From IMG/VR virus record IMGVR_UViG_3300035158_000384, positions 1 through 64,000 of that record: DNA of 64,000 bases. One strand, 5' to 3'. Below the pieces are notes generated by a model. That model worked only from the letters and a program-made list of their open reading frames with translations, ran no database searches and was not told where the DNA came from. The stretch is from a virus. Both the position numbers and the translations under genes were made by a program. Below, piece by piece: positions 3,465 through 30,477 of the stretch; position 1 is the first letter of the stretch; every line of letters begins with the position of its first letter.

Positions 3465-3770
3465 TTATTTTGCCTTTTCAACGGTGATGAACAATATACC
3501 GTTCCTTAAAGATGGCAAATCCTTTCGTAGTGTCCGTGTCTCCATATGGATCATCTCACGAGCGCATTTAGCTGATAAGGTGTCGGCTCCCTCCAACGCA
3601 TCCAGACATTGAGCCAAAAGCGCTCTCTTATACTCCTCTGTGCCCGGTTCTATGTAGCCTTTTCCATTGCACACTTCGCATATTGGACCACTTGAGGGCT
3701 TCTTCCAATACACTAGATACCCAGTTCCCTGACATCCGCCGGGGCATCCCAAGACTTCATTTTGTGACAT
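3465..3770 (-). CDS. DnaJ-type zinc-finger protein
   Basis: CPGGCQGTG and CEVCNGKG (CxxCxGxG-like) motifs. Confidence 0.6.
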   Translation of the reverse strand: MSQNEVLGCPGGCQGTGYLVYWKKPSSGPICEVCNGKGYIEPGTEEYKRALLAQCLDALEGADTLSAKCAREMIHMETRTLRKDLPSLRNGILFITVEKAK

Positions 3771-3810
3771 AAGGCAATGACCTCAAAAATCACCAACAAA
3801 ACAATTAGAG

Positions 3811-3894
3811 TAGGGGCACCGGGATTCGAACCCGGACGACCTTTCGGTCACGGGCTTTTAAGGCCCGAGCGTCTACCAATTCCACCATGCCCCC
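3811..3894 (-). tRNA. tRNA-Leu(TAA)
   Basis: cloverleaf; anticodon arm CGGGC-CTTAAAA-GCCCG; long variable arm. Confidence 0.95.
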
Positions 3895-3900
3895 AAAGAA

Positions 3901-4278
3901 CTATTCTGGAAACTTAACCTCACCTTCGCCTGTTACATAACAATCAAATTCAATTTTGTCAGCGGCAACGGGTGGGGTGAAAACGACCTTTGGAATATCC
4001 ACGCAGATAAACGGAAAGACAAAGCGGCGGAAAAAGGTCAAAACAGAATACTGGAAAAGCCCTTGGTTTTCGTTGGTCAAACCTTCCCAAGCTAGATCAA
4101 AAACCTCCTTCACTACTTTGGGTATAATAGCATCCATATCAAGGAAATCCCTACAAGGGAACTCCTTCCTATAGTCCTTAATTATCTCGAAAACCTTATC
4201 AACATCTTGGAAAAGACGATAAACACAGAAGGGCGGATTTTGAGCTTCGTTCTTGGAACAATCCATGTAGTCCTCCAA
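3901..4278 (-). CDS. hypothetical protein
   Basis: ORF with GGAGG upstream of the internal ATG. Confidence 0.6.
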   Translation of the reverse strand: MEDYMDCSKNEAQNPPFCVYRLFQDVDKVFEIIKDYRKEFPCRDFLDMDAIIPKVVKEVFDLAWEGLTNENQGLFQYSVLTFFRRFVFPFICVDIPKVVFTPPVAADKIEFDCYVTGEGEVKFPE

Positions 4279-4282
4279 AAGT

Positions 4283-4549
4283 TCATTCTTGCATCATTGA
4301 TTTCAAACGCTCAAACTCGGTTTTATCGAGGTGGAACCAAAATTCTTCCTCGATCCCCCCACTCCAAAATAGCACCACAAATTCTCCCGGTCGCGGTCGA
4401 ACATCTATCTCACCAGCATCACGATACCCAAGCACACGAATACCCGGTGCGAGAATGCCTCCCATCGTCACCTCATAAATGGAGCCTATCCCGCACGAGT
4501 ATGGACCGTAACTTTCAAAAGGAAAGCGCGTGCGAGAAAGATGCTCCAT
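4283..4549 (-). CDS. hypothetical protein
   Basis: 88-aa ORF, AGGAG RBS. Confidence 0.6.
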   Translation of the reverse strand: MEHLSRTRFPFESYGPYSCGIGSIYEVTMGGILAPGIRVLGYRDAGEIDVRPRPGEFVVLFWSGGIEEEFWFHLDKTEFERLKSMMQE

Positions 4550-4602
4550 TGCTTTTCTCCTGTTTATAATCCAACAACAAAGCTATTCAGAATCGGAAGA
4601 TA

Positions 4603-4863
4603 TTACACCTTCTTTGCTCTTGATCCGCTTTTCTGCTCTCGAACAACAGCCCGATAACAGTCGTAGCAAATAAAATGGTACAGGGGAGATTCCTTTATAC
4701 CTTGGAGTGAGACTTGATCAACCACTCGCAAGGTTCTCCCACAAACAGATTTTGCTGTTCCGTTATCCGTTTGAAGCGATAAATGTATAGCTCTACCCTT
4801 CGGGGATTGGCCTATGCCGTAAGTTTTCATGATGGCTCCGTTTTCAAAAAGGTCTCTCGGCAC
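4603..4863 (-). CDS. hypothetical protein, possible Zn-binding
   Basis: H...CG...CxxC pattern, GAGG RBS. Confidence 0.55.
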   Translation of the reverse strand: MPRDLFENGAIMKTYGIGQSPKGRAIHLSLQTDNGTAKSVCGRTLRVVDQVSLQGIKESPLYHFICYDCYRAVVREQKSGSRAKKV

Positions 4864-4872
4864 CTCTTTTTT

Positions 4873-5115
4873 TTATTGCCGCGCCTTCCAAGAGACAACC
4901 TTACCCCCGCCCCCTTTGTTGAAGCACCAACGCTCTGCACAACCCTTCTGTGCAAACCGATCCACCATCTCGTACCAATGACCATCCTCGAGCCGCTTTA
5001 GATTGTCGTCGATGTACTCGAGGGCATCCTGTTTGCGGTCAAGGTACACCTCCGCGTCGGATTCTTCGTTTTCCCAACATTGAATCACGATGTAGCGTTG
5101 TGAAAAATCACCCAT
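4873..5115 (-). CDS. hypothetical protein
   Basis: 80-aa ORF overlapping upstream gene stop. Confidence 0.6.
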   Translation of the reverse strand: MGDFSQRYIVIQCWENEESDAEVYLDRKQDALEYIDDNLKRLEDGHWYEMVDRFAQKGCAERWCFNKGGGGKVVSWKARQ

Positions 5116-5335
5116 TCTGCCCCCCTATATCGTCCGGTAGAGTAACACCCAAAGCCTTGGCTAAAGTCACCAGCGCCGCGTAGGGTGCTTGAGGATCAAT
5201 CGCACACATACCGTCTCCAACAACCTGCCTGATAGCTCTCTTGAGGCGTCTGCGCACCTTCGCCCACCCGATCACCGAATACCCGTATGCAGCCGCTTCG
5301 TCCTGCATCATGTCGTTGTAAGAAGGCTTGTCCAC
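5108..5335 (-). CDS. hypothetical protein
   Basis: 75-aa ORF directly below promoter 5376-5404. Confidence 0.6.
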   Translation of the reverse strand: MDKPSYNDMMQDEAAAYGYSVIGWAKVRRRLKRAIRQVVGDGMCAIDPQAPYAALVTLAKALGVTLPDDIGGQNG

Positions 5336-5375
5336 CTCGATCCCCCTTTAACAAAAAATCATACCCTTCGAAAAG

Positions 5376-5404
5376 AGTATACCACACGTTTGACATTGCG
5401 TCAA
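5376..5404 (-). promoter_or_regulatory. sigma70 promoter with overlapping palindromic box
   Basis: TTGACG-17 nt-TATACT with TG extension; palindrome TTGACATTGCGTCAA at 5390-5404. Confidence 0.8.
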
Positions 5405-5457
5405 GCTCTTTTTAGGAAAAATTACTGGGGGTTGCGAAAACTGGCGGGTTTATTTTG

Positions 5458-5532
5458 TCGGGCAGACAGGATTCGAACCTGCACCCTCCCGGACCCAAAC
5501 CGGGTGCTCCACTCAAGTTGAGCTACTGCCCG
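5458..5532 (-). tRNA. tRNA-Pro(TGG)
   Basis: anticodon arm CCCGG-TTTGGGT-CCGGG; canonical T-arm. Confidence 0.95.
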
Positions 5533-5546
5533 TATACATCGTCTTA

Positions 5547-5619
5547 TGGAGCCTGTGGGATTCGAACCCACTACCCCCACCGTGCAAAAGTGGTGCTCTC
5601 CCAAGTGAGCTAAGGCCCC
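5547..5619 (-). tRNA. tRNA-Ala(TGC)
   Basis: GGGGCCT/AGGCTCC acceptor with G3.U70; loop TTTGCAC. Confidence 0.95.
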
Positions 5620-5639
5620 GTTTGTCACTCTCACATTTG

Positions 5640-5724
5640 CGGAAGGTGTAGGATTCGAACCCACGGACCTCTCGGTCTTCGGTTTTCAAAACCGACGCCA
5701 TAAACCGGACTCGGCCAACCTTCC
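5640..5724 (-). tRNA. tRNA-Ser(TGA)
   Basis: TCGGT-TTTGAAA-ACCGA, long variable arm, G73. Confidence 0.95.
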
Positions 5725-5729
5725 TTTTG

Positions 5730-5803
5730 TAGTGCGGACGGGACTTGAACCCGTAACCTCGTGCTTATAAGGCACGCGCTCTCACCAGTTGAGCTACCGC
5801 ACC
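5730..5803 (-). tRNA. tRNA-Ile(TAT)
   Basis: CGTGC-CTTATAA-GCACG; canonical D and T arms. Confidence 0.9.
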
Positions 5804-5805
5804 AG

Positions 5806-6063
5806 TTATCCAGCCCACGTCATTTTTGACCACTTGTTCCACTTCTCGACCGCATCGGCTTTGCTGTCGGCGTATCTCACATGCAACGTGTGCTCTCTAT
5901 ATGATCCTTGTCCGTGTTTGGAGCAACACAGAAACAACCATATTCCACCCTGCCCCCTCCGCGACTCGTCGCAGATCAACATCGGCGGGGCTCCACACAT
6001 GCAGGGTTCGGCACCCAGCATTTTCGCCTCTGTTATGGCCTGTTCGGTTTCTGCGTCAGTCAC
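5806..6063 (-). CDS. Lar (restriction alleviation)-like Zn protein
   Basis: GAGGAGG RBS plus GTG; PCMCG...CC...ADAVEKWN resembles the Lar-family PCPFCG...AIEAWN pattern. Confidence 0.5.
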   Translation of the reverse strand: MTDAETEQAITEAKMLGAEPCMCGAPPMLICDESRRGQGGIWLFLCCSKHGQGSYREHTLHVRYADSKADAVEKWNKWSKMTWAG

Positions 6064-6089
6064 CGGCGGTACCTCCTCGGCGTAGTTTG

Positions 6090-6178
6090 TGGGAGCGGCT
6101 GGATTTGAACCAGCGAAAGTCAATACGACTATCGGGTTTACAGCCCGACTCCTTTGGCCAGACTCGGAACACGCTCCC
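6090..6178 (-). tRNA. tRNA-Tyr(GTA)
   Basis: TCGGG-CTGTAAA-CCCGA, long variable arm. Confidence 0.95.
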
Positions 6179-6201
6179 TCTATCCGTCTCGTTTACTTTT
6201 T

Positions 6202-6284
6202 TGGGGGCCGGAGCAGGACTCGAACCTACGACAAGTCAGACGAAGCGTGTTCGCCAACCGTTCTGCCAACTGAACTATCCGGCC
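6202..6284 (-). ncRNA. tRNA-like RNA with no canonical anticodon loop, encoded CCA
   Basis: acceptor GGCCGGA/TCCGGCC+C+CCA, D-arm GTTC/GAAC, T-loop TTCGAGT; anticodon arm is a ~9-bp stem with loop CACGC. Confidence 0.8.
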
Positions 6285-6595
6285 TTGTAAATGAACACCG
6301 GCGCTGTTAAGGGGTCAAAAGAAGGGTCAGTATCGAACGGGCATCCGTAGTAACGACAGCGAGGCACCCATCCGGGAGCCCCTCTCTTCCTAAAAGCGGG
6401 GTCAGTAATCCAACGCGGACGGTTAATGTAGACGCCTGTGAAACGACAGAAACCCACCGGTACCCCACTCCCCCAAATCGTTCCATCCAACGTGTCTCTC
6501 GGCTCTGCGTTCTGATCAACCTTACGCGAGTCCACAAAAGCGGGACACTCATTGCACGTTTGGGGGGCTTCACCTTTTGGCAACGTCCACAACAT
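6275..6595 (-). CDS. hypothetical Cys-rich protein
   Basis: CxxCP...C...CP pattern like 1681-2130; GAGGTGG RBS. Confidence 0.55.
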   Translation of the reverse strand: MLWTLPKGEAPQTCNECPAFVDSRKVDQNAEPRDTLDGTIWGSGVPVGFCRFTGVYINRPRWITDPAFRKRGAPGWVPRCRYYGCPFDTDPSFDPLTAPVFIYKAG

Positions 6596-6621
6596 TTACC
6601 ACCTCTGACTCCAACGCGCGT

Positions 6622-6699
6622 TGGCACACCCGGAAGGATTCGAACCCTCAATCTGCTGGTCCGTAGCCAGCCGCCTTAATCCAATTTGGCCACGGGTGT
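6622..6699 (-). tRNA. tRNA-Arg(ACG)
   Basis: GCTGG-CTACGGA-CCAGC; encoded CCA. Confidence 0.95.
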
Positions 6700-6706
6700 G
6701 TATAAG

Positions 6707-6779
6707 TACCCCGACGGGGAATTGAACCCTCGATTAGCGGATTGAAAGCCCGCCGTCCTAACCATTGGACCACCGGGGC
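6707..6779 (-). tRNA. tRNA-Glu(TTC)
   Basis: GCGGG-CTTTCAA-TCCGC. Confidence 0.9.
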
Positions 6780-6865
6780 ATTTAGAACGCTCTGCACATG
6801 CTCTTCTCCGTATTACACCGGCCCGACTCGAACAGTCCGCCCGTCAAGGATGAGGAAAGGGGGTG

Positions 6866-7117
6866 TTAATCGGGCACGGCGTCCTCGCCGCACTCCTCGA
6901 AGAGGGCGTCGTACACCCCCTCCGCTGCGGTGTCCAGTAGTTCCCCTTCGCTCAAGGAAGGGTGATCTTTCGTAGGGGAGAGCACCAGAACACCTTTTTT
7001 CTCGATTTCAGCCCAAATGTAGGGCCTCAAGTTCTCTGGCACCATCTTCTGAAAGTTCGCGCGGGTCTTGGTGCCCACAACATCAGCATTGAAGTGAATC
7101 ACATAAATCTCACCCAT
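6866..7117 (-). CDS. hypothetical protein
   Basis: GGAGGAGG RBS before MGEIYV. Confidence 0.6.
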   Translation of the reverse strand: MGEIYVIHFNADVVGTKTRANFQKMVPENLRPYIWAEIEKKGVLVLSPTKDHPSLSEGELLDTAAEGVYDALFEECGEDAVPD

Positions 7118-7174
7118 ATCGTCCTCCTCCTGTCTGATTGCGTAACCCTGTAACCGTTCTTCCAAAACAGCTTA

Positions 7175-7249
7175 CCCAGCATACGGGATTTGAACCCGTG
7201 TCACCGGATCGACAATCCGGTATTCTAAACCAAGCTGAACTAATGCCGG
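7175..7249 (-). tRNA. tRNA-Asp(GTC)
   Basis: CCGGA-TTGTCGA-TCCGG, G73. Confidence 0.9.
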
Positions 7250-7250
7250 T

Positions 7251-7328
7251 TGGTGGAGCGGGAGGGATTTGAACCCACGATGTTCTGCTTGTAAGGCAGA
7301 CGCCCTAACCAGACTAGGCCACCGCTCC
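7251..7328 (-). tRNA. tRNA-Val(TAC)
   Basis: TCTGC-CTTACAA-GCAGA, encoded CCA. Confidence 0.95.
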
Positions 7329-7421
7329 AAAACTGAAGGTGGGGGAGGAGTAAGAGGTCCAGACGAGTCCAAGGGTGTATCCCTCTTCTTGGTGCTATTG
7401 AAAAGTCGCACCGGGTAGTTG

Positions 7422-7496
7422 TTGCGGGGGTCGGATTTGAACCGACGTACTCGTGCTTATGAGGCACGCGAGGCGACCAGACTCCTCAACCCCGCA
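7422..7496 (-). tRNA. tRNA-Met(CAT), initiator-like body
   Basis: TGCGGGG/CCCCGCA acceptor, A11-U24 pair, TTCAAAT T-loop; arm CGTGC-CTCATAA-GCACG. Confidence 0.9.
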
Positions 7497-7502
7497 ATCA
7501 AA

Positions 7503-7584
7503 TGAACCAGCAAGGATCGTAGTGATTGGCTTTTAAGCCCTGATTATGAGTCAGGTGATTGTAATCACTCCGGCATCTGGTTCA
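7503..7584 (-). ncRNA. short Y RNA carrying an isolated anticodon-arm-like hairpin
   Basis: terminal stem TGAACCAG/CTGGTTCA, ATGC//ATCCTTG internal loop shared with the two neighbouring RNAs; downstream of the Ro60 gene. Confidence 0.8.
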
Positions 7585-7590
7585 ATATGA

Positions 7591-7725
7591 AAGGGCAGCA
7601 AGTATTGACAGAGAACGTGTACGGGGCCTAACCACTCGGCCACCCCCTCGTAAGTGAGGGGGGCAGGATTCGAACCTGCGTTCTCCGGCTTTCCAAGCAA
7701 AGTAGCTCTGCCAGCATCTACCCTT
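7591..7725 (-). ncRNA. YrlA-type Y RNA
   Basis: Ro-binding stem plus permuted tRNA domain: T-arm GCAGG-TTCGAAT-CCTGC, closed acceptor CCCCCTC/GAGGGGG, D-arm GCC/GGC. Confidence 0.88.
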
Positions 7726-7734
7726 ATTTGTTTT

Positions 7735-7862
7735 GGGCCGACAAGGATGAGCAGGAGTCATTGGCGCTCTACCTCTGAGCTACAGGAGGTTTCCCTCCTG
7801 ATGGGATTTGAACCCACGTCCTCCTCCTTACTTGGGAATGTAATCCTACCCGCATTCGGCCC
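7735..7862 (-). ncRNA. YrlA-type Y RNA
   Basis: GGGCCGA/TCGGCCC stem; T-arm GTGGG-TTCAAAT-CCCAT; acceptor hairpin CAGGAGG-GAAA-CCTCCTG; D-arm GCTC/GAGC. Confidence 0.9.
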
Positions 7863-7938
7863 TTTTGTCAACTGTTAAAGAGCAGTATTACAACCTTACA
7901 ATTACCGCATCACGCAAAGATGTCACACGATTTCCCGC

Positions 7939-9570
7939 TTATATCTCCACAGCCTCGATCCGACTGAGCCACAACTCTGGACCTTCCTGCGGCTGTGCTT
8001 CCTGCTCGTTTGCCACAGCGCCTCCAAGGACACGCAGAAGGTCATCGCTGAACCCTCCGATGTAATGCACTTCGTTGCCCTTGGCCTGTGTTGTAGTAGT
8101 CGAGCCTGCCAGATTAACGAAATACAATTTCGCATCCGGGCAAAGCCGTCGGTAATCAAGCCACCGCCCCATAATAGGTGTAGTTTCACCTCTTGGATGC
8201 GTAACCCCTGCGTATGAGGCATCCCACATGCCGTACACCTCCATGTCAGACAGCACAATCACCCGATCAGCTTTCTCCCTCTTCTCCACGATGTGGTCAA
8301 GAACCAGATGCGCGTAGGTACAACCGCCGCCATAGGCAGAAAGCCGCTTCTGAAGCGTGAATACCGTATCCCGAGGCTCCAGCTTCTCCGCTCCGTAGGC
8401 AGCATCGAGGTGCAACTGCCCATCAAACGGGAGAACCAACGTGTCCGGGTTCTTCTTGAGAAAGATCGCCCCGAACAGCGCGGCGACATCAACACACTTG
8501 ATCTCCGACGACTGGTTGCGTCGCATCCCGGTAACAGGCGTCCACGTCATTGACCCGGAGACGTCTACCCCCAATATGGTGCGTCCCGAGAACGGCTCCA
8601 TCTCCTCGATCAAACCACCCATCACAGCGTGTAAAGCATCTGACACGGCCCTCGGCAGGTTTTCCCTCGCGAAGAGGTAAGTAGCCAATAAGTGGTGAGG
8701 GAACAACTTCTGCTTGTCGTAATCACTCGGATTCTGGAGGCGCTCCGCCACCGTAGCGCACACCTTGGGCTCCTGCAAAAGACCCTTCCTCGCGAGCACG
8801 TTCAGGTTCATCCGCAACCACGTCCAACTCACAAACTCAAGCATCTGCGCCCAATGGACCGGCTTTTTCAGGTGGTTCTCGATAAGCGCCTTCGGGAGCG
8901 TAGGGAGTTTGTCCGACTCGCCGCGCTTGAACGCCTCGAACTCCTTCACCACCGTCGGAAGTATCTCACGGTTGTAGTCACCCTTGCGGCGGTTCACCAA
9001 GTACCCAAAAAGCGCCTCGTGCTCTGCCGTGGCAGGCTTTGGATGGACCATGCGGATCACGTCCGCCAGCGAAGGGTTCTTGCCCATGCTGTTACGGAAA
9101 ATGGTAGCGGGTTTGCGGTCTGCGAACCATCGCTCCATACACCTCCGAGCCGCATTGCTGAAGCTCTTGCGCCCCAATACACCACTACGAACGACCTGCG
9201 CGAACGTGCGAAGCTGCTTCCCGTTGTCAACCACTCGAGGGAACACCTTCTCAGCGAGTTCCTTGTCGCGGTTGAACAAGTGCGCCAAAAGGACCACAGG
9301 AGCGTCCTTCATCTTAGCCATCTCACGCCCATACACAGCCGCCTTTGCCTCAAAAAGAGCATCGACATTGTCAGCCAAACGCAGGAATGTTGCAAGCTGG
9401 TCCTCGGCGGTGTTGTAGAAGCCGTCTTGGATCGTGAACGTACAGACACCCTGTGCAAGCGCCAGCTTCGGGGTCTGCACAAATGCAATCCCGCCCGCGC
9501 TGTTGCGAGTGTCGGCCTGCGGAGTTGCAGCCCGTAGTGTGTTAAAAATCTTCTTGTTCGCCATGTCCAA
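7939..9570 (-). CDS. rsr: Ro60/Rsr TROVE-domain RNA-binding protein with C-terminal vWA
   Basis: NSAGG N-terminus, DVIRMVHPKP, LRMNLN, MIDAS DVSGSM, GGCT, VLSD; followed by Y RNAs. Confidence 0.92.
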   Translation of the reverse strand: MDMANKKIFNTLRAATPQADTRNSAGGIAFVQTPKLALAQGVCTFTIQDGFYNTAEDQLATFLRLADNVDALFEAKAAVYGREMAKMKDAPVVLLAHLFNRDKELAEKVFPRVVDNGKQLRTFAQVVRSGVLGRKSFSNAARRCMERWFADRKPATIFRNSMGKNPSLADVIRMVHPKPATAEHEALFGYLVNRRKGDYNREILPTVVKEFEAFKRGESDKLPTLPKALIENHLKKPVHWAQMLEFVSWTWLRMNLNVLARKGLLQEPKVCATVAERLQNPSDYDKQKLFPHHLLATYLFARENLPRAVSDALHAVMGGLIEEMEPFSGRTILGVDVSGSMTWTPVTGMRRNQSSEIKCVDVAALFGAIFLKKNPDTLVLPFDGQLHLDAAYGAEKLEPRDTVFTLQKRLSAYGGGCTYAHLVLDHIVEKREKADRVIVLSDMEVYGMWDASYAGVTHPRGETTPIMGRWLDYRRLCPDAKLYFVNLAGSTTTTQAKGNEVHYIGGFSDDLLRVLGGAVANEQEAQPQEGPELWLSRIEAVEI

Positions 9571-18570: not shown

Positions 18571-19254
18571 TCATTCGCTACCTAAGCCGTATTCAGCATC
18601 CCTATCCGCGTCGACTTCTTCGTTCGGCGGCCATGTGTACCCGAAGTCCTTGCGTTTGATTTTGACCATACGCCCGTCCGGGTGGTGCCACACTACACCC
18701 TCGATTTTGGTCCTCGAGAAATACTGAAGCAGGCCGTAGAAGTCTCTCGGGACATCCCGCAATTCAACAGCCCCGTGCCGATAAAACTCATGCTCCTCGA
18801 GCTTATACGGGTTCCCTTGCACCTTTGGACCGACCAACTCGAACGTCGCCGGACCTCGAAGATTGTGCAACGAAGGCTCGCGGTTCCAAGCCTCCTCAAA
18901 CATACCGTAGTCCGACGCTTTCGGGTCCACCGGAACCCATCCGGGCCAATGCCCCGTGTTTACGTCAGGCTCCGTTTCACACTCACGCCAACTCTCGGGG
19001 GCTGGTTTGAAATCTGATAGACGATAGGGCTTGTCTGGATGTTTTGCGTGCGCCCTGCGTGCGGATTTTGTAACCTTTCGGTCATACCGCCGCCACAGCC
19101 TCCCTTCGAACACCAAGCAGGCCATACCATCCATTTTAACGGTGGCTTTGCCTTCCCCAGCCACAACCCACTCGCAACCCGCCACCAATTCGTCTTTCAC
19201 GAGCCGCGTACCGCCTGTGTAGTCCCTCTGAAACAAACTCGGAACCTTTTTCAC
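18571..19254 (-). CDS. ATP-dependent RNA ligase, C12orf29/RLIG1 (DUF5565)-like
   Basis: motif I TVKMDG, DFKPAPESW, GHWPGWVPV, motif III ELVG..VQGNPY, motif IV IEGVVWH, motif V VKIK. Confidence 0.85.
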   Translation of the reverse strand: MKKVPSLFQRDYTGGTRLVKDELVAGCEWVVAGEGKATVKMDGMACLVFEGRLWRRYDRKVTKSARRAHAKHPDKPYRLSDFKPAPESWRECETEPDVNTGHWPGWVPVDPKASDYGMFEEAWNREPSLHNLRGPATFELVGPKVQGNPYKLEEHEFYRHGAVELRDVPRDFYGLLQYFSRTKIEGVVWHHPDGRMVKIKRKDFGYTWPPNEEVDADRDAEYGLGSE

Positions 19255-29574: not shown

Positions 29575-30477
29575 TCAAAGTCTGTCGAGGGCTTTCCGGG
29601 TGATCTCGTGTATTTCGCGAAGAGCCTGCTTATCGGCGTCGGAACGTACAATTTCGGCATTGGACAGCTTACCGAAATTGTGCTCCAAACAATTCAGTAG
29701 CAACTCTGTGAGAGCATCCCAATCAGGGCTGTATCGCAGGTCGCTTGTGTCATACAGAGGCTCAAGCGCTTTCATCTTGTCGTCAAAATGATTCTCCAAC
29801 CGTTCAACCGTCCACTCACCCCGGCGAACAGCCTTCATCTCTTCTGCGTTCCGCCCGAGTACAAGATCGCCGGTGGCGAGTATTTGCTCGACCTCGTCAA
29901 GTAGTCTCACAAGGTGATAGCCAAATTTCACGTCAAACCCATGCTTCTCCACCAAAGCTTGCCGCTTACTGTCCTTTTTGGGGTTCTTGGTCTTGATTTT
30001 GTGCAACTGCGAGTAAGCGTAGCCTTTGAACTTGTGCCACGCTCTCTTGGAGAGGAAAAGCTTGCGGTTCTCGCGGACCATGTCCCCGACTGCCGTACTG
30101 TGGAGAACGCAACGCTGTGGAACAAACAGGCTGTCCACCATATTTGGGTTGTTGTCTCCACACAAGGCGAAGTACTTCGCAATGGAGTAGATACAAAAAT
30201 CATACTCCTGACCGGTATCGGGGACGACGACCCCATGTTGCGAATACTGATCGAACGCCTCTTTTGGCTTGTTGTACCCGTAAATGAACCCGTCGGTGTG
30301 CGGGAACACGATCCGCTTTGGGGGGATACAAAATCCGTAGAGGTCCATGTCGCTCGTGTCGTTGGACACATTGTATGCAACCGAACCCATTATGACTTCC
30401 CATTGCGTAGTGTTGGGAAACCACGGCGGCCCGTGTATCAAACCCTGCTTGATCAGTTTATCCACATGGCTGGCCAC
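29575..30477 (-). CDS. Pol-beta-superfamily nucleotidyltransferase (RlaP/YcgL-like)
   Basis: GSVAYN..NDTSDMDLYG, NNPN, FKGYAYSQL, YHLVRL. Confidence 0.85.
   Translation of the reverse strand: MASHVDKLIKQGLIHGPPWFPNTTQWEVIMGSVAYNVSNDTSDMDLYGFCIPPKRIVFPHTDGFIYGYNKPKEAFDQYSQHGVVVPDTGQEYDFCIYSIAKYFALCGDNNPNMVDSLFVPQRCVLHSTAVGDMVRENRKLFLSKRAWHKFKGYAYSQLHKIKTKNPKKDSKRQALVEKHGFDVKFGYHLVRLLDEVEQILATGDLVLGRNAEEMKAVRRGEWTVERLENHFDDKMKALEPLYDTSDLRYSPDWDALTELLLNCLEHNFGKLSNAEIVRSDADKQALREIHEITRKALDRL

What the first reader, a model, noticed from the sequence alone, without database searches (positions are those of the whole stretch)
7503..7584. Minimal Y RNA displaying a free anticodon arm (CAU)
Seen: the 82-nt Y RNA lacks T and D arms but contains an exact 5-bp/7-nt anticodon stem-loop CCUGA-CUCAUAA-UCAGG (U33, CAU, A37). 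Next to it is CUUAAAAGCC, identical to the loop and 3' stem start of this phage's tRNA-Leu(UAA). The neighbouring YrlA (7591-7725) also has a GC-UUGGAAA-GC loop resembling Ser(GGA). Inference: Ro-protected anticodon decoys or baits for anticodon nucleases or tRNA-modifying enzymes.
Basis: partly seen in the sequence, partly recalled or inferred. Interest (0 to 1): 0.72.

Follow-up and report, generated by a model that had tools for sequence, protein, structure and literature searches.

The report
Phage small Y RNA showing anticodon arm
An 82-base RNA gene next to a phage copy of the RNA-surveillance protein Ro60 is a small Y RNA whose tip copies a methionine tRNA anticodon arm, and about 40% of such small Y RNAs in bacteria and phages carry the same kind of tip, which the papers I could search do not describe.

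Summary
On the minus strand, 7503-7584 folds into a terminal stem, an AUGC / GAUCCUUG internal loop and a second stem. This is the same docking architecture as the two YrlA RNAs just upstream and the Rfam YrlA consensus. It lies directly downstream of a Ro60 gene and 6 nt upstream of tRNA-Met. The tip is a 5-bp/7-nt hairpin, CCUGA[CUCAUAA]UCAGG, followed by a short second hairpin.

Within this genome alone, neither tRNA match exceeds chance: 1.3 such hairpins are expected and 2 are seen, and anticodon-arm 10-mers occur 15 times against 17.5 expected.

Among 201 distinct small Y RNAs beside Ro60 genes, 77 have a 7-nt loop of the form YUNNNRN, against 5.4 in shuffles. Their profile is that of anticodon loops: Y32, U33, free 34-36, R37, no G38, and G37 following G36.

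So this is a YrlB-class Y RNA with an anticodon-arm mimic. The decoy or bait function is untested. The tRNA-Leu resemblance is probably coincidence. Other agents of this scan reported the same hairpin on other DNA.

The parts
7939..9570 (-). Ro60/Rsr homologue (543 aa; TROVE + vWA ring protein)
   Evidence: Pfam vWA_Ro60 scores 25.5 bits. 4618 homologues have E<=1e-20, mostly annotated as 60 kDa SS-A/Ro or TROVE. The best non-self hit is 41% identical. Myxococcus phage Mx1 is 36% identical.
7732..7862 (-). YrlA-type Y RNA 1 (permuted tRNA-like domain on the Ro-docking stem)
   Evidence: Rfam RF02553 scores 52.7 bits, E = 3e-11, below the gathering score of 69 because of a 15-nt inserted hairpin after UUAC.
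7589..7724 (-). YrlA-type Y RNA 2, with the inserted GC[UUGGAAA]GC hairpin after CUAC
   Evidence: Rfam RF02553 scores 46.7 bits, E = 2e-9. The Rfam tRNA model aligns the insert to its anticodon arm in a weak, non-significant match (15.9 bits, E 1.6).
7503..7584 (-). Small (YrlB-class) Y RNA, the finding itself
   Evidence: Fold. It shares the 6-bp stem / AUGC(N) / 7-8-bp stem / 8-nt ..CUUG loop architecture with both YrlAs and the Rfam consensus. Model R1 scores it 48.5 bits, though it was a seed of that model.
7577..7584 (-). Terminal stem, 5' strand (UGAACCAG); pairs with 7503-7510 (CUGGUUCA)
7573..7576 (-). Conserved AUGC of the 5' side of the internal loop (presumed Ro60 contact region)
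   Evidence: Invariant in the alignment of small Y RNAs and in the Rfam YrlA consensus.
7511..7518 (-). 3' side of the internal loop, GAUCCUUG (conserved CUUG)
7559..7563 (-). UACAA, this RNA's version of the near-invariant UACAU that caps the second stem
   Evidence: UACAU is found in 336 of 373 family hits and UACAA in 4.
7539..7555 (-). Anticodon-arm mimic CCUGA[CUCAUAA]UCAGG; loop 7544-7550, CAU at 7546-7548
   Evidence: family pattern
7528..7538 (-). Second short hairpin, G-GC[UUAAAA]GC-C
   Evidence: At least six related two-hairpin small Y RNAs carry a hairpin with a 4-nt loop here, several of them GNRA or UUCG.
7421..7496 (-). tRNA-Met(CAU), 6 nt downstream; its 5' processing would define the 3' trailer of the Y RNA

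Best explanation
7503-7584 (minus strand) is a small, YrlB-class Y RNA of the phage's own Ro60 protein. It is transcribed with rsr, two YrlA RNAs and the tRNA array, and is released partly by tRNA processing.

Its paired 5' and 3' ends, together with the AUGC / ..CUUG internal loop, form the Ro60 docking handle. Its far end carries a stand-alone mimic of a tRNA anticodon arm: 5-bp stem, 7-nt loop, C32 U33 CAU A37 A38, identical to a Met tRNA loop.

This tip is one version of a module found in about 40% of small Y RNAs, in which the four flanking loop positions are kept and the triplet varies.

Proposed mechanism (inferred): the Ro60-bound RNA presents the loop in a U-turn to a factor that normally reads tRNA anticodon loops. 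That factor could be an anticodon nuclease or an anticodon-loop modification enzyme. The particle would then occupy the factor as a decoy or competitor, or tether it to Ro60, as part of the phage's kit against tRNA damage (extra tRNAs, RNA ligase, RlaP).

Shown: the RNA architecture, its family membership, and the conserved anticodon-loop profile. Inferred: Ro60 binding, the U-turn geometry, the partner and the outcome.
For: Y RNA identity:
- Same strand as the Ro60 gene and immediately after it and two YrlA hits.
- Same handle as the Rfam YrlA consensus.
- A handle-only regex finds exactly the three RNAs at full pairing in 64 kb.
- A covariance model of the handle finds 73 + 157 + 167 hits beside Ro60 genes in 240 loci, every one on the Ro60 strand. 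It also hits the bona fide enteric YrlB.

Anticodon-arm module:
- 77 of 201 distinct small Y RNAs have a hairpin of at least 3 bp with a YUNNNRN 7-nt loop, against 5.4 +/- 2.4 in dinucleotide shuffles (0 of 500 reach it).
- CUNNNAA occurs in 40 of them against 0.55 in shuffles. At loop lengths 4, 5, 6, 8, 9 and 10 the analogous CU...AA pattern occurs 0, 0, 3, 0, 0 and 0 times.
- A detection blind to the tip gives the same result.
- Unselected profile of 87 hairpins: Y32 80, U33 66, positions 34-36 even, R37 71, G38 only 5. Positions 33/37 show no Watson-Crick covariation, and 32/38 are CA, UU, CC, UA or UC.
- 37 different triplets occur.
- 51 of 77 loops equal a real tRNA loop, against 41 +/- 2.9 after permuting the flanks (P = 4e-4). 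G37 follows G36 (Fisher 1.3e-4).
- A tRNA with the same anticodon lies in the same locus in 18 of 48 cases, against 9.5 expected (P = 6e-4). In this window that tRNA is the adjacent tRNA-Met.

Context: 12 co-oriented tRNAs, plus an RLIG1-type RNA ligase and RlaP.
Against: - No orthologue of this particular RNA could be found. Ro60 has no relative above 41% identity except one truncated contig, so conservation of the CAU loop itself is untested.
- Its closest relative by handle sequence (L056:5571-5633) has a plain AU-rich tip.
- Within this genome the loop match is at the chance rate.
- Most family hairpins have 3-4 bp, not the 5 bp of a tRNA.
- 10 of 82 loops have A34, and 9 of those triplets are not natural bacterial anticodons.
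- Related sequences are not independent: there are 159 clusters at 80% identity, 62 of them with the loop.
- The reference tRNAs come from the same loci.
- The published effector of bacterial and phage Y RNAs is PNPase, not a tRNA enzyme (PMC4201824, PMC12135203).
- No binding, cleavage or modification data exist.
Confidence: 0.5

Rival explanations
1. Generic U-turn loop, not tRNA mimicry. The tip is a YUNR-type U-turn hairpin that simply presents 3-5 bases for fast pairing with another RNA (a kissing contact that guides Ro60/PNPase to a target), or that binds the KH/S1 domains of PNPase as in the known Ro60-Y RNA-PNPase machine. The likeness to anticodon loops would then be convergent geometry.
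For: - The strongest signal is U33 plus R37 in a 7-nt loop, which is the U-turn signature.
- Stems are mostly 3-4 bp, not 5.
- 9 of 82 triplets are unnatural A34 anticodons.
- Y RNAs of Deinococcus and of Thermus phage phiLo bind PNPase (PMC4201824, PMC12135203).
Against: - A plain U-turn does not explain the tRNA-like 32/38 combinations and the avoidance of G38.
- It does not explain G37 following G36.
- It does not explain the excess of loops identical to real tRNA loops beyond flank permutation.
- It does not explain the link to a same-anticodon tRNA in the same locus.
Confidence: 0.25
2. Evolutionary leftover. Y RNAs arose from tRNAs, and these tips are relics or recent patches copied from neighbouring tRNA genes, kept only as a stable cap for the stem with no reading of the loop.
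For: - YrlA is a permuted tRNA (PMC4201824).
- Y RNAs sit inside tRNA arrays: 696 of 698 nearby tRNAs lie on the Ro60 strand.
- Loops match local tRNAs more often than expected.
Against: - Here only the loop matches the neighbouring tRNA-Met, not the stem (CCUGA/UCAGG against CGUGC/GCACG), so it is not a recent copy.
- The flanking positions stay conserved across 62 clusters while the triplets vary. That pattern looks like selection on the loop frame.
Confidence: 0.15
3. Chance in this particular RNA. The window's hairpin is an ordinary structural element of an unusually long small Y RNA, and its CUCAUAA loop and the CUUAAAAGCC string match tRNAs by accident.
For: - Genome-wide, 1.3 such loop matches are expected and 2 are seen.
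- Anticodon-arm 10-mers occur 15 times against 17.5 expected.
- The nearest relative lacks the hairpin.
- CAU occurs only once among 82 family loops.
Against: The prior that a small Y RNA tip is an anticodon-like loop is about 0.4 from the family. This one has the full C32 U33 NNN A37 A38 frame on a 5-bp stem.
Confidence: 0.1

Closest known systems
YrlB (Rfam RF02565; second Rsr-bound Y RNA of Salmonella Typhimurium; Chen et al. 2013/2014, PMC4201824)
   Same: - A small Y RNA encoded right after rsr and before YrlA.
- A long hairpin with the same AUGC / ..UUG internal loop and UACAU cap.
- My handle model hits the enteric YrlB at 31.8 bits.
   Different: - RF02565 does not hit this RNA or nine other loci.
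- Enteric YrlB ends in a 6-nt pyrimidine-rich loop, UUUCCC.
- This RNA has a three-way junction with a 5-bp/7-nt anticodon-like hairpin and a second hairpin.
YrlA (Rfam RF02553; tRNA-like Y RNA; Chen et al. 2014; Wang et al. 2018, bioRxiv 10.1101/312249)
   Same: Same Ro60 docking handle, same locus and strand, and tRNA mimicry as the theme.
   Different: YrlA mimics the acceptor/T/D body and explicitly lacks an anticodon loop. This RNA has only an anticodon-arm look-alike and no T or D arm.
Deinococcus radiodurans Yrn1 'anticodon arm' (Chen et al. 2014, Fig. 2E)
   Same: A Y RNA modelled with a 5-bp stem in the anticodon-arm position.
   Different: The Yrn1 loop has 6 nt and was noted for one species only. 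Here the loop is 7 nt with the full Y32 U33 ... R37 frame, and the feature recurs in 62 sequence clusters.
Thermus phage phiLo Ro60 with Yrl1/Yrl2 (PMC12135203)
   Same: A phage-encoded Ro60 with two or more phage-encoded Y-like RNAs. The proposed role is hijacking host RNA machinery.
   Different: The phiLo RNAs were shown to bind Ro60 and PNPase, and that paper never mentions anticodons. Nothing has been tested here.
tRNA anticodon stem-loop minihelices and YUNR U-turn loops of antisense RNAs (my own knowledge, not checked here)
   Same: A 7-nt loop with U33 and R37 on a short stem, known to suffice for some anticodon-loop enzymes and for fast RNA pairing.
   Different: Those are tRNA fragments or antisense regulators. 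This one is mounted on a Ro60 docking handle.

Membership tests
Y RNA (Ro60/Rsr partner RNA) | Encoded next to the Ro60 gene on the same strand | tested here: met
   The Ro60 ORF is at 7939-9570 (-) and the RNA at 7503-7584 (-). All 397 family hits in 240 other loci lie on the Ro60 strand.
Y RNA (Ro60/Rsr partner RNA) | 5' and 3' ends pair into a stem interrupted by the conserved Ro-binding internal loop | tested here: met
   The layout is a 6-8-bp stem, AUGC(C) opposite GAUCCUUG, then an 8-9-bp stem. This matches the Rfam YrlA consensus layout (5 nt / 8 nt).
Y RNA (Ro60/Rsr partner RNA) | GNCGAAN0-1G motif near the 5' end (Chen et al. 2014) | tested here: inconclusive
   YrlA-1 has GCCGAAUG. 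The small RNA has ACCAGAUG and YrlA-2 has GUAGAUG. The changed bases are paired and compensated, and the same variant occurs in L056 and L085.
Y RNA (Ro60/Rsr partner RNA) | Physically bound and stabilised by Ro60 | not testable with these tools
   Needs immunoprecipitation or EMSA.
YrlB, Rfam RF02565 | Scores above the family's gathering threshold (97 bits) | tested here: not met
   There is no RF02565 match at E <= 10 in 3500-8500. The control enteric YrlB scores 105.5 bits.
YrlA, Rfam RF02553 | T arm, closed acceptor-like stem and D arm on the handle | tested here: not met
   There is no YrlA or tRNA hit on 7503-7584. The tip holds only two small hairpins.
tRNA anticodon arm (as a mimic, not as a tRNA) | 5-bp stem and 7-nt loop with Y32, U33, R37 | tested here: met
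   CCUGA[CUCAUAA]UCAGG.
tRNA anticodon arm (as a mimic, not as a tRNA) | Loop frame conserved and triplet variable among homologues | tested here: met
   Tested at family level only. No orthologue of this exact RNA was available.
tRNA anticodon arm (as a mimic, not as a tRNA) | U-turn fold, anticodon-loop modifications, recognition by nucleases or enzymes | not testable with these tools
   Needs structure probing, modification mapping and enzyme assays.

The most novel reading that the evidence does not exclude
Small Y RNAs form a repertoire of Ro60-mounted anticodon-arm mimics, with different 'anticodons' in different copies (often several per locus). They would work together with tRNA arrays and RNA ligases as a defence or counter-defence against anticodon nucleases. 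Each mimic would titrate or sense the nuclease aimed at one tRNA species, and in this phage the Met/CAU copy would protect or report on CAU tRNAs. That would give Ro60-Y RNA particles a concrete job in tRNA-targeted conflicts between phages and bacteria.
Probability: 0.3. Interest if true: 0.85.

Novelty: new variant of a known kind. Interest (0 to 1): 0.66.

Why it matters
Bacterial Y RNAs are known as tRNA mimics that lack the anticodon loop, and the job of the second, small Y RNA (YrlB) is unknown.

This analysis shows that about 40% of small Y RNAs beside Ro60 genes carry the missing piece. It is an anticodon-loop look-alike with tRNA-specific details (32/38 pairs, G37 after G36) and a freely varying triplet.

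That gives a direct, cheap hypothesis for what these particles touch: enzymes or nucleases that read anticodon loops. It also ties in with the genes found beside Ro60: tRNA arrays in 88 of the 240 loci here, an RNA ligase and RlaP in this phage, and RtcB in Salmonella (PMC7790460).

For this phage it suggests a counter-measure against tRNA-cleaving host defences. It also shows that the Rfam YrlA and YrlB models miss most of this diversity.

Tried and rejected
1. Orthologues of this RNA.
- Megablast and blastn against phage records found only tRNA-Met matches.
- An IMG/VR scan with the Ro60 protein found nothing close.
- A search of 5.8 billion proteins gave no Ro60 above 41% identity.
- The one 98%-identical contig (L166) ends inside rsr, and the rest of that MAG has no match.

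2. Myxococcus phage Mx1, the nearest named phage. No YrlA and no small Y RNA was detected around its Ro60 gene.

3. tRNA-Leu mimicry of the second hairpin. Rejected: the loop is 6 nt, relatives have 4-nt loops there, and the 10-mer match is at the chance rate.

4. Degenerate T arm. The loop CUCAUAA lacks U54 and A58 of a T loop. T-loop-like UUCGAAU tips do exist in other small Y RNAs, but they are a separate minority.

5. 33-37 base pair (a triloop) as the reason for the U...A pattern. Rejected: there is no C-G, G-C or A-U covariation.

6. The reverse-complement control is uninformative for YUNNNRN, because the pattern is nearly self-complementary (66 against 77). It is informative for CUNNNAA (40 against 1).

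7. Bias from the covariance model. Checked with a regex that ignores the tip, which gave the same result.

8. The reviews PMC10870794 and PMC6047535 could not be read.

Full report
**What is in the window.** All relevant features are on the minus strand.
- An ORF at 7939-9570 encodes a 543-aa Ro60/Rsr homologue. It has a Pfam vWA_Ro60 hit and thousands of TROVE/Ro60 homologues, but none above 41% identity apart from itself. The nearest named phage is Myxococcus phage Mx1 at 36%.
- Downstream lie two sub-threshold YrlA matches, at 7732-7862 (52.7 bits) and 7589-7724 (46.7 bits; gathering score 69).
- Next comes the 82-nt RNA of the finding, and 6 nt further the tRNA-Met(CAU), the first of a run of co-oriented tRNAs. 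ARAGORN and Rfam both find 12 in the record.
- The record is a 95.7-kb IMG/VR virus fragment. It has myovirus baseplate genes, an RLIG1-type RNA ligase and an RlaP RNA-repair nucleotidyltransferase.

**The RNA.** The sequence 7584->7503 folds at -23.7 kcal/mol, z = -2.9. It has these parts:
- an 8-bp terminal stem;
- an internal loop with AUGC(C) on the 5' side and GAUCCUUG on the 3' side;
- a 9-bp second stem capped by UACAA;
- a three-way junction holding CCUGA[CUCAUAA]UCAGG and G-GC[UUAAAA]GC-C.

The handle has the same layout as the Rfam YrlA consensus: 6 bp, a 5-nt AUGCu loop opposite an 8-nt ..AcUuG loop, then 7 bp. It is shared by the two YrlAs. A regex for that handle finds exactly these three RNAs at full pairing in the 64-kb window. 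No Rfam family, including YrlB RF02565, matches the 82-nt RNA.

**Chance within this genome.**
- The loop CUCAUAA equals the anticodon loop of the neighbouring tRNA-Met, and CUUAAAAGCC is shared with tRNA-Leu(UAA).
- The record contains 1790 5-bp/7-nt hairpins. About 1.3 non-tRNA ones are expected to carry one of the 12 anticodon loops, and 2 do.
- Anticodon-arm 10-mers occur elsewhere 15 times, against 17.5 expected.
- Taken alone, then, the matches prove nothing.

**Comparative test.** No orthologue of this RNA exists in the collections, so I worked at family level.
- I fetched 80 viral, 80 metagenomic and 80 genomic loci with Ro60 homologues.
- I built a covariance model of the handle from ten small RNAs found by the regex.
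- It gave 73, 157 and 167 hits at E <= 1, every one on the Ro60 strand.
- It also hits the genuine enteric YrlB, which RF02565 scores at 105 bits. The class is therefore YrlB-like.
- RF02565 itself does not detect these environmental and phage members.
- The tip nearly always starts with UACAU (336 of 373 hits).

**The tip is an anticodon-loop look-alike.**
- Of 201 distinct small tips (45 nt or less), 77 have a hairpin of at least 3 bp with a 7-nt YUNNNRN loop. Dinucleotide shuffles give 5.4 +/- 2.4, and 0 of 500 reach 77.
- 40 have CUNNNAA, against 0.55 in shuffles. At loop lengths 4, 5, 6, 8, 9 and 10 the analogous CU...AA pattern occurs 0, 0, 3, 0, 0 and 0 times.
- A detection that ignores the tip entirely gives the same picture. 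It finds 70 hits on the Ro60 strand and 0 on the other, and 35 of 68 distinct tips have the loop.
- I also profiled, without pre-selection, 87 hairpins with at least 4 bp and a 7-nt loop. Y32 occurs in 80, U33 in 66, positions 34-36 are even, R37 occurs in 71 and G38 in only 5.
- Positions 33/37 show no Watson-Crick covariation (UA 47, CG 3, GC 1, AU 0). Positions 32/38 are CA, UU, CC, UA or UC. To my knowledge these are the usual 32/38 combinations in tRNAs.
- The triplets are diverse: 37 kinds, with position 34 as G 36, U 24, C 12, A 10.
- 51 of 77 loops are identical to the anticodon loop of a real tRNA from the same set of loci, against 41 +/- 2.9 when flanks are permuted (P = 4e-4).
- G37 follows G36 (7 of 14, against 3 of 63; Fisher 1.3e-4). 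The His-type GUG loops keep A37 while the Leu- and Pro-type NAG and NGG loops have G37. By my own recollection this follows the m1G37 rule of tRNAs.
- A tRNA with the same anticodon sits in the same locus in 18 of 48 cases, against 9.5 +/- 2.4 expected (P = 6e-4).
- The sequences fall into 159 clusters at 80% identity, 62 of which have the loop.
- GUN triplets, which are the queuosine tRNA set, make up 21 of 82.

**Where this RNA fits, and where it does not.**
- Its 5-bp stem and C32 U33 CAU A37 A38 loop fit the module.
- Its long 5' spacer and second hairpin place it in a subclass with an anticodon-like hairpin followed by a second short hairpin (L066, L105, L124, L151, L154, L187). In those relatives the second hairpin closes a 4-nt loop, several of them GNRA or UUCG. 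Because of this, the 6-nt loop and the chance-level 10-mer, I regard the tRNA-Leu likeness as coincidence.
- The nearest relative by handle sequence (L056) has a plain AU-rich tip, so the tip module is swapped freely.
- About 19 of 141 long (YrlA-type) Y RNAs carry the same kind of hairpin right after UAC and before the T arm. Among closely related Variovorax strains, only the triplet differs.
- The GC[UUGGAAA]GC of YrlA-2 lies at that place.

**Caveats.**
- Most family stems are 3-4 bp.
- Nine triplets are not natural bacterial anticodons.
- The shuffles do not correct for relatedness, and the reference tRNAs come from the same loci.
- Function is entirely inferred.
- The published partner of bacterial and phage Y RNAs is PNPase (PMC4201824, PMC12135203).
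- Hughes et al. suggested only that the YrlA tRNA-like domain might compete with an anticodon nuclease (PMC7790460).
- In the papers I could search, YrlA is said to lack an anticodon loop (10.1101/312249). [quoted passage not shown] I found no description of anticodon-like tips. Two reviews could not be read.
- Notes of this scan report the same hairpin on Y-RNA handles in other genomes. These are unchecked AI notes. They agree with my result but are not independent evidence.

**Verdict.** This is a real YrlB-class Y RNA with a genuine, family-wide anticodon-arm mimic. It is a new variant of a known kind. The decoy or bait mechanism is plausible in context but untested.

Noticed in passing
window 18571-19254 (-) and 29575-30477 (-): An RLIG1-type RNA ligase (83 bits) and an RlaP RNA-repair nucleotidyltransferase (54.6 bits). 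With Ro60, the Y RNAs and 12 tRNAs, they look like a tRNA-damage repair or replacement kit.
   Followed up: partly
L006-L245 (240 Ro60 loci): tRNA arrays flank Ro60 genes. There are 710 tRNA calls in 88 of 240 loci, including bacterial MAG contigs with up to 19 tRNAs in 7.5 kb. 696 of 698 lie on the Ro60 strand (Rfam-confirmed in nine loci).
   Followed up: partly
L203, L210, L213, L227, L228, L232, L242 (about 4805-4923): In closely related Variovorax strains and one further genome (L242), the long Y RNA has a 3-bp hairpin, AGA or AGC[CU NNN AA]UCU or GCU, before the T arm. The triplet differs from strain to strain (AUU, CCU, CUU, CCA, AUC) while the rest is kept.
   Followed up: no
small Y RNA tips, alignments A3-A5: GUN triplets (the Asn, Asp, Tyr and His tRNAs that receive queuosine) make up 21 of 82 anticodon-like loops. 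A separate minority of tips carry T-loop-like UUCGAAU or UCGAAC.
   Followed up: no
window 7555-7560 and 7522-7527 (-): AAUCAC occurs twice, so GUGAUU of the second stem can pair with either copy. The alternative fold is only 1.1 kcal/mol above the MFE and keeps the anticodon-like hairpin. It may be a conformational switch.
   Followed up: partly
window 5729-5803 and 7421-7496 (-): tRNA-Ile(UAU) and tRNA-Met(CAU) have identical anticodon stems (CGUGC/GCACG). The CAU tRNA has a G1-C72 pair and no GGG/CCC anticodon stem, so it is not an initiator and could be an Ile2-type tRNA.
   Followed up: no
window 7732-7862 and 7589-7724 (-): Both YrlA RNAs fall below the Rfam gathering score, mainly because of a 15-nt hairpin inserted after UUAC or CUAC, at the variable-arm position.
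   Followed up: partly
L166 (CAZNJE010000176.1, 2172 nt): A contig binned in a bacterial MAG encodes the first 296 residues of this Ro60 at 98% identity. The same phage therefore occurs in a second metagenome, but the contig stops before the Y RNAs.
   Followed up: yes
window 7843-7871 (-): A promoter-like site, TTGACA-17-TAGGAT (10 of 12), overlaps the start of YrlA-1.
   Followed up: no
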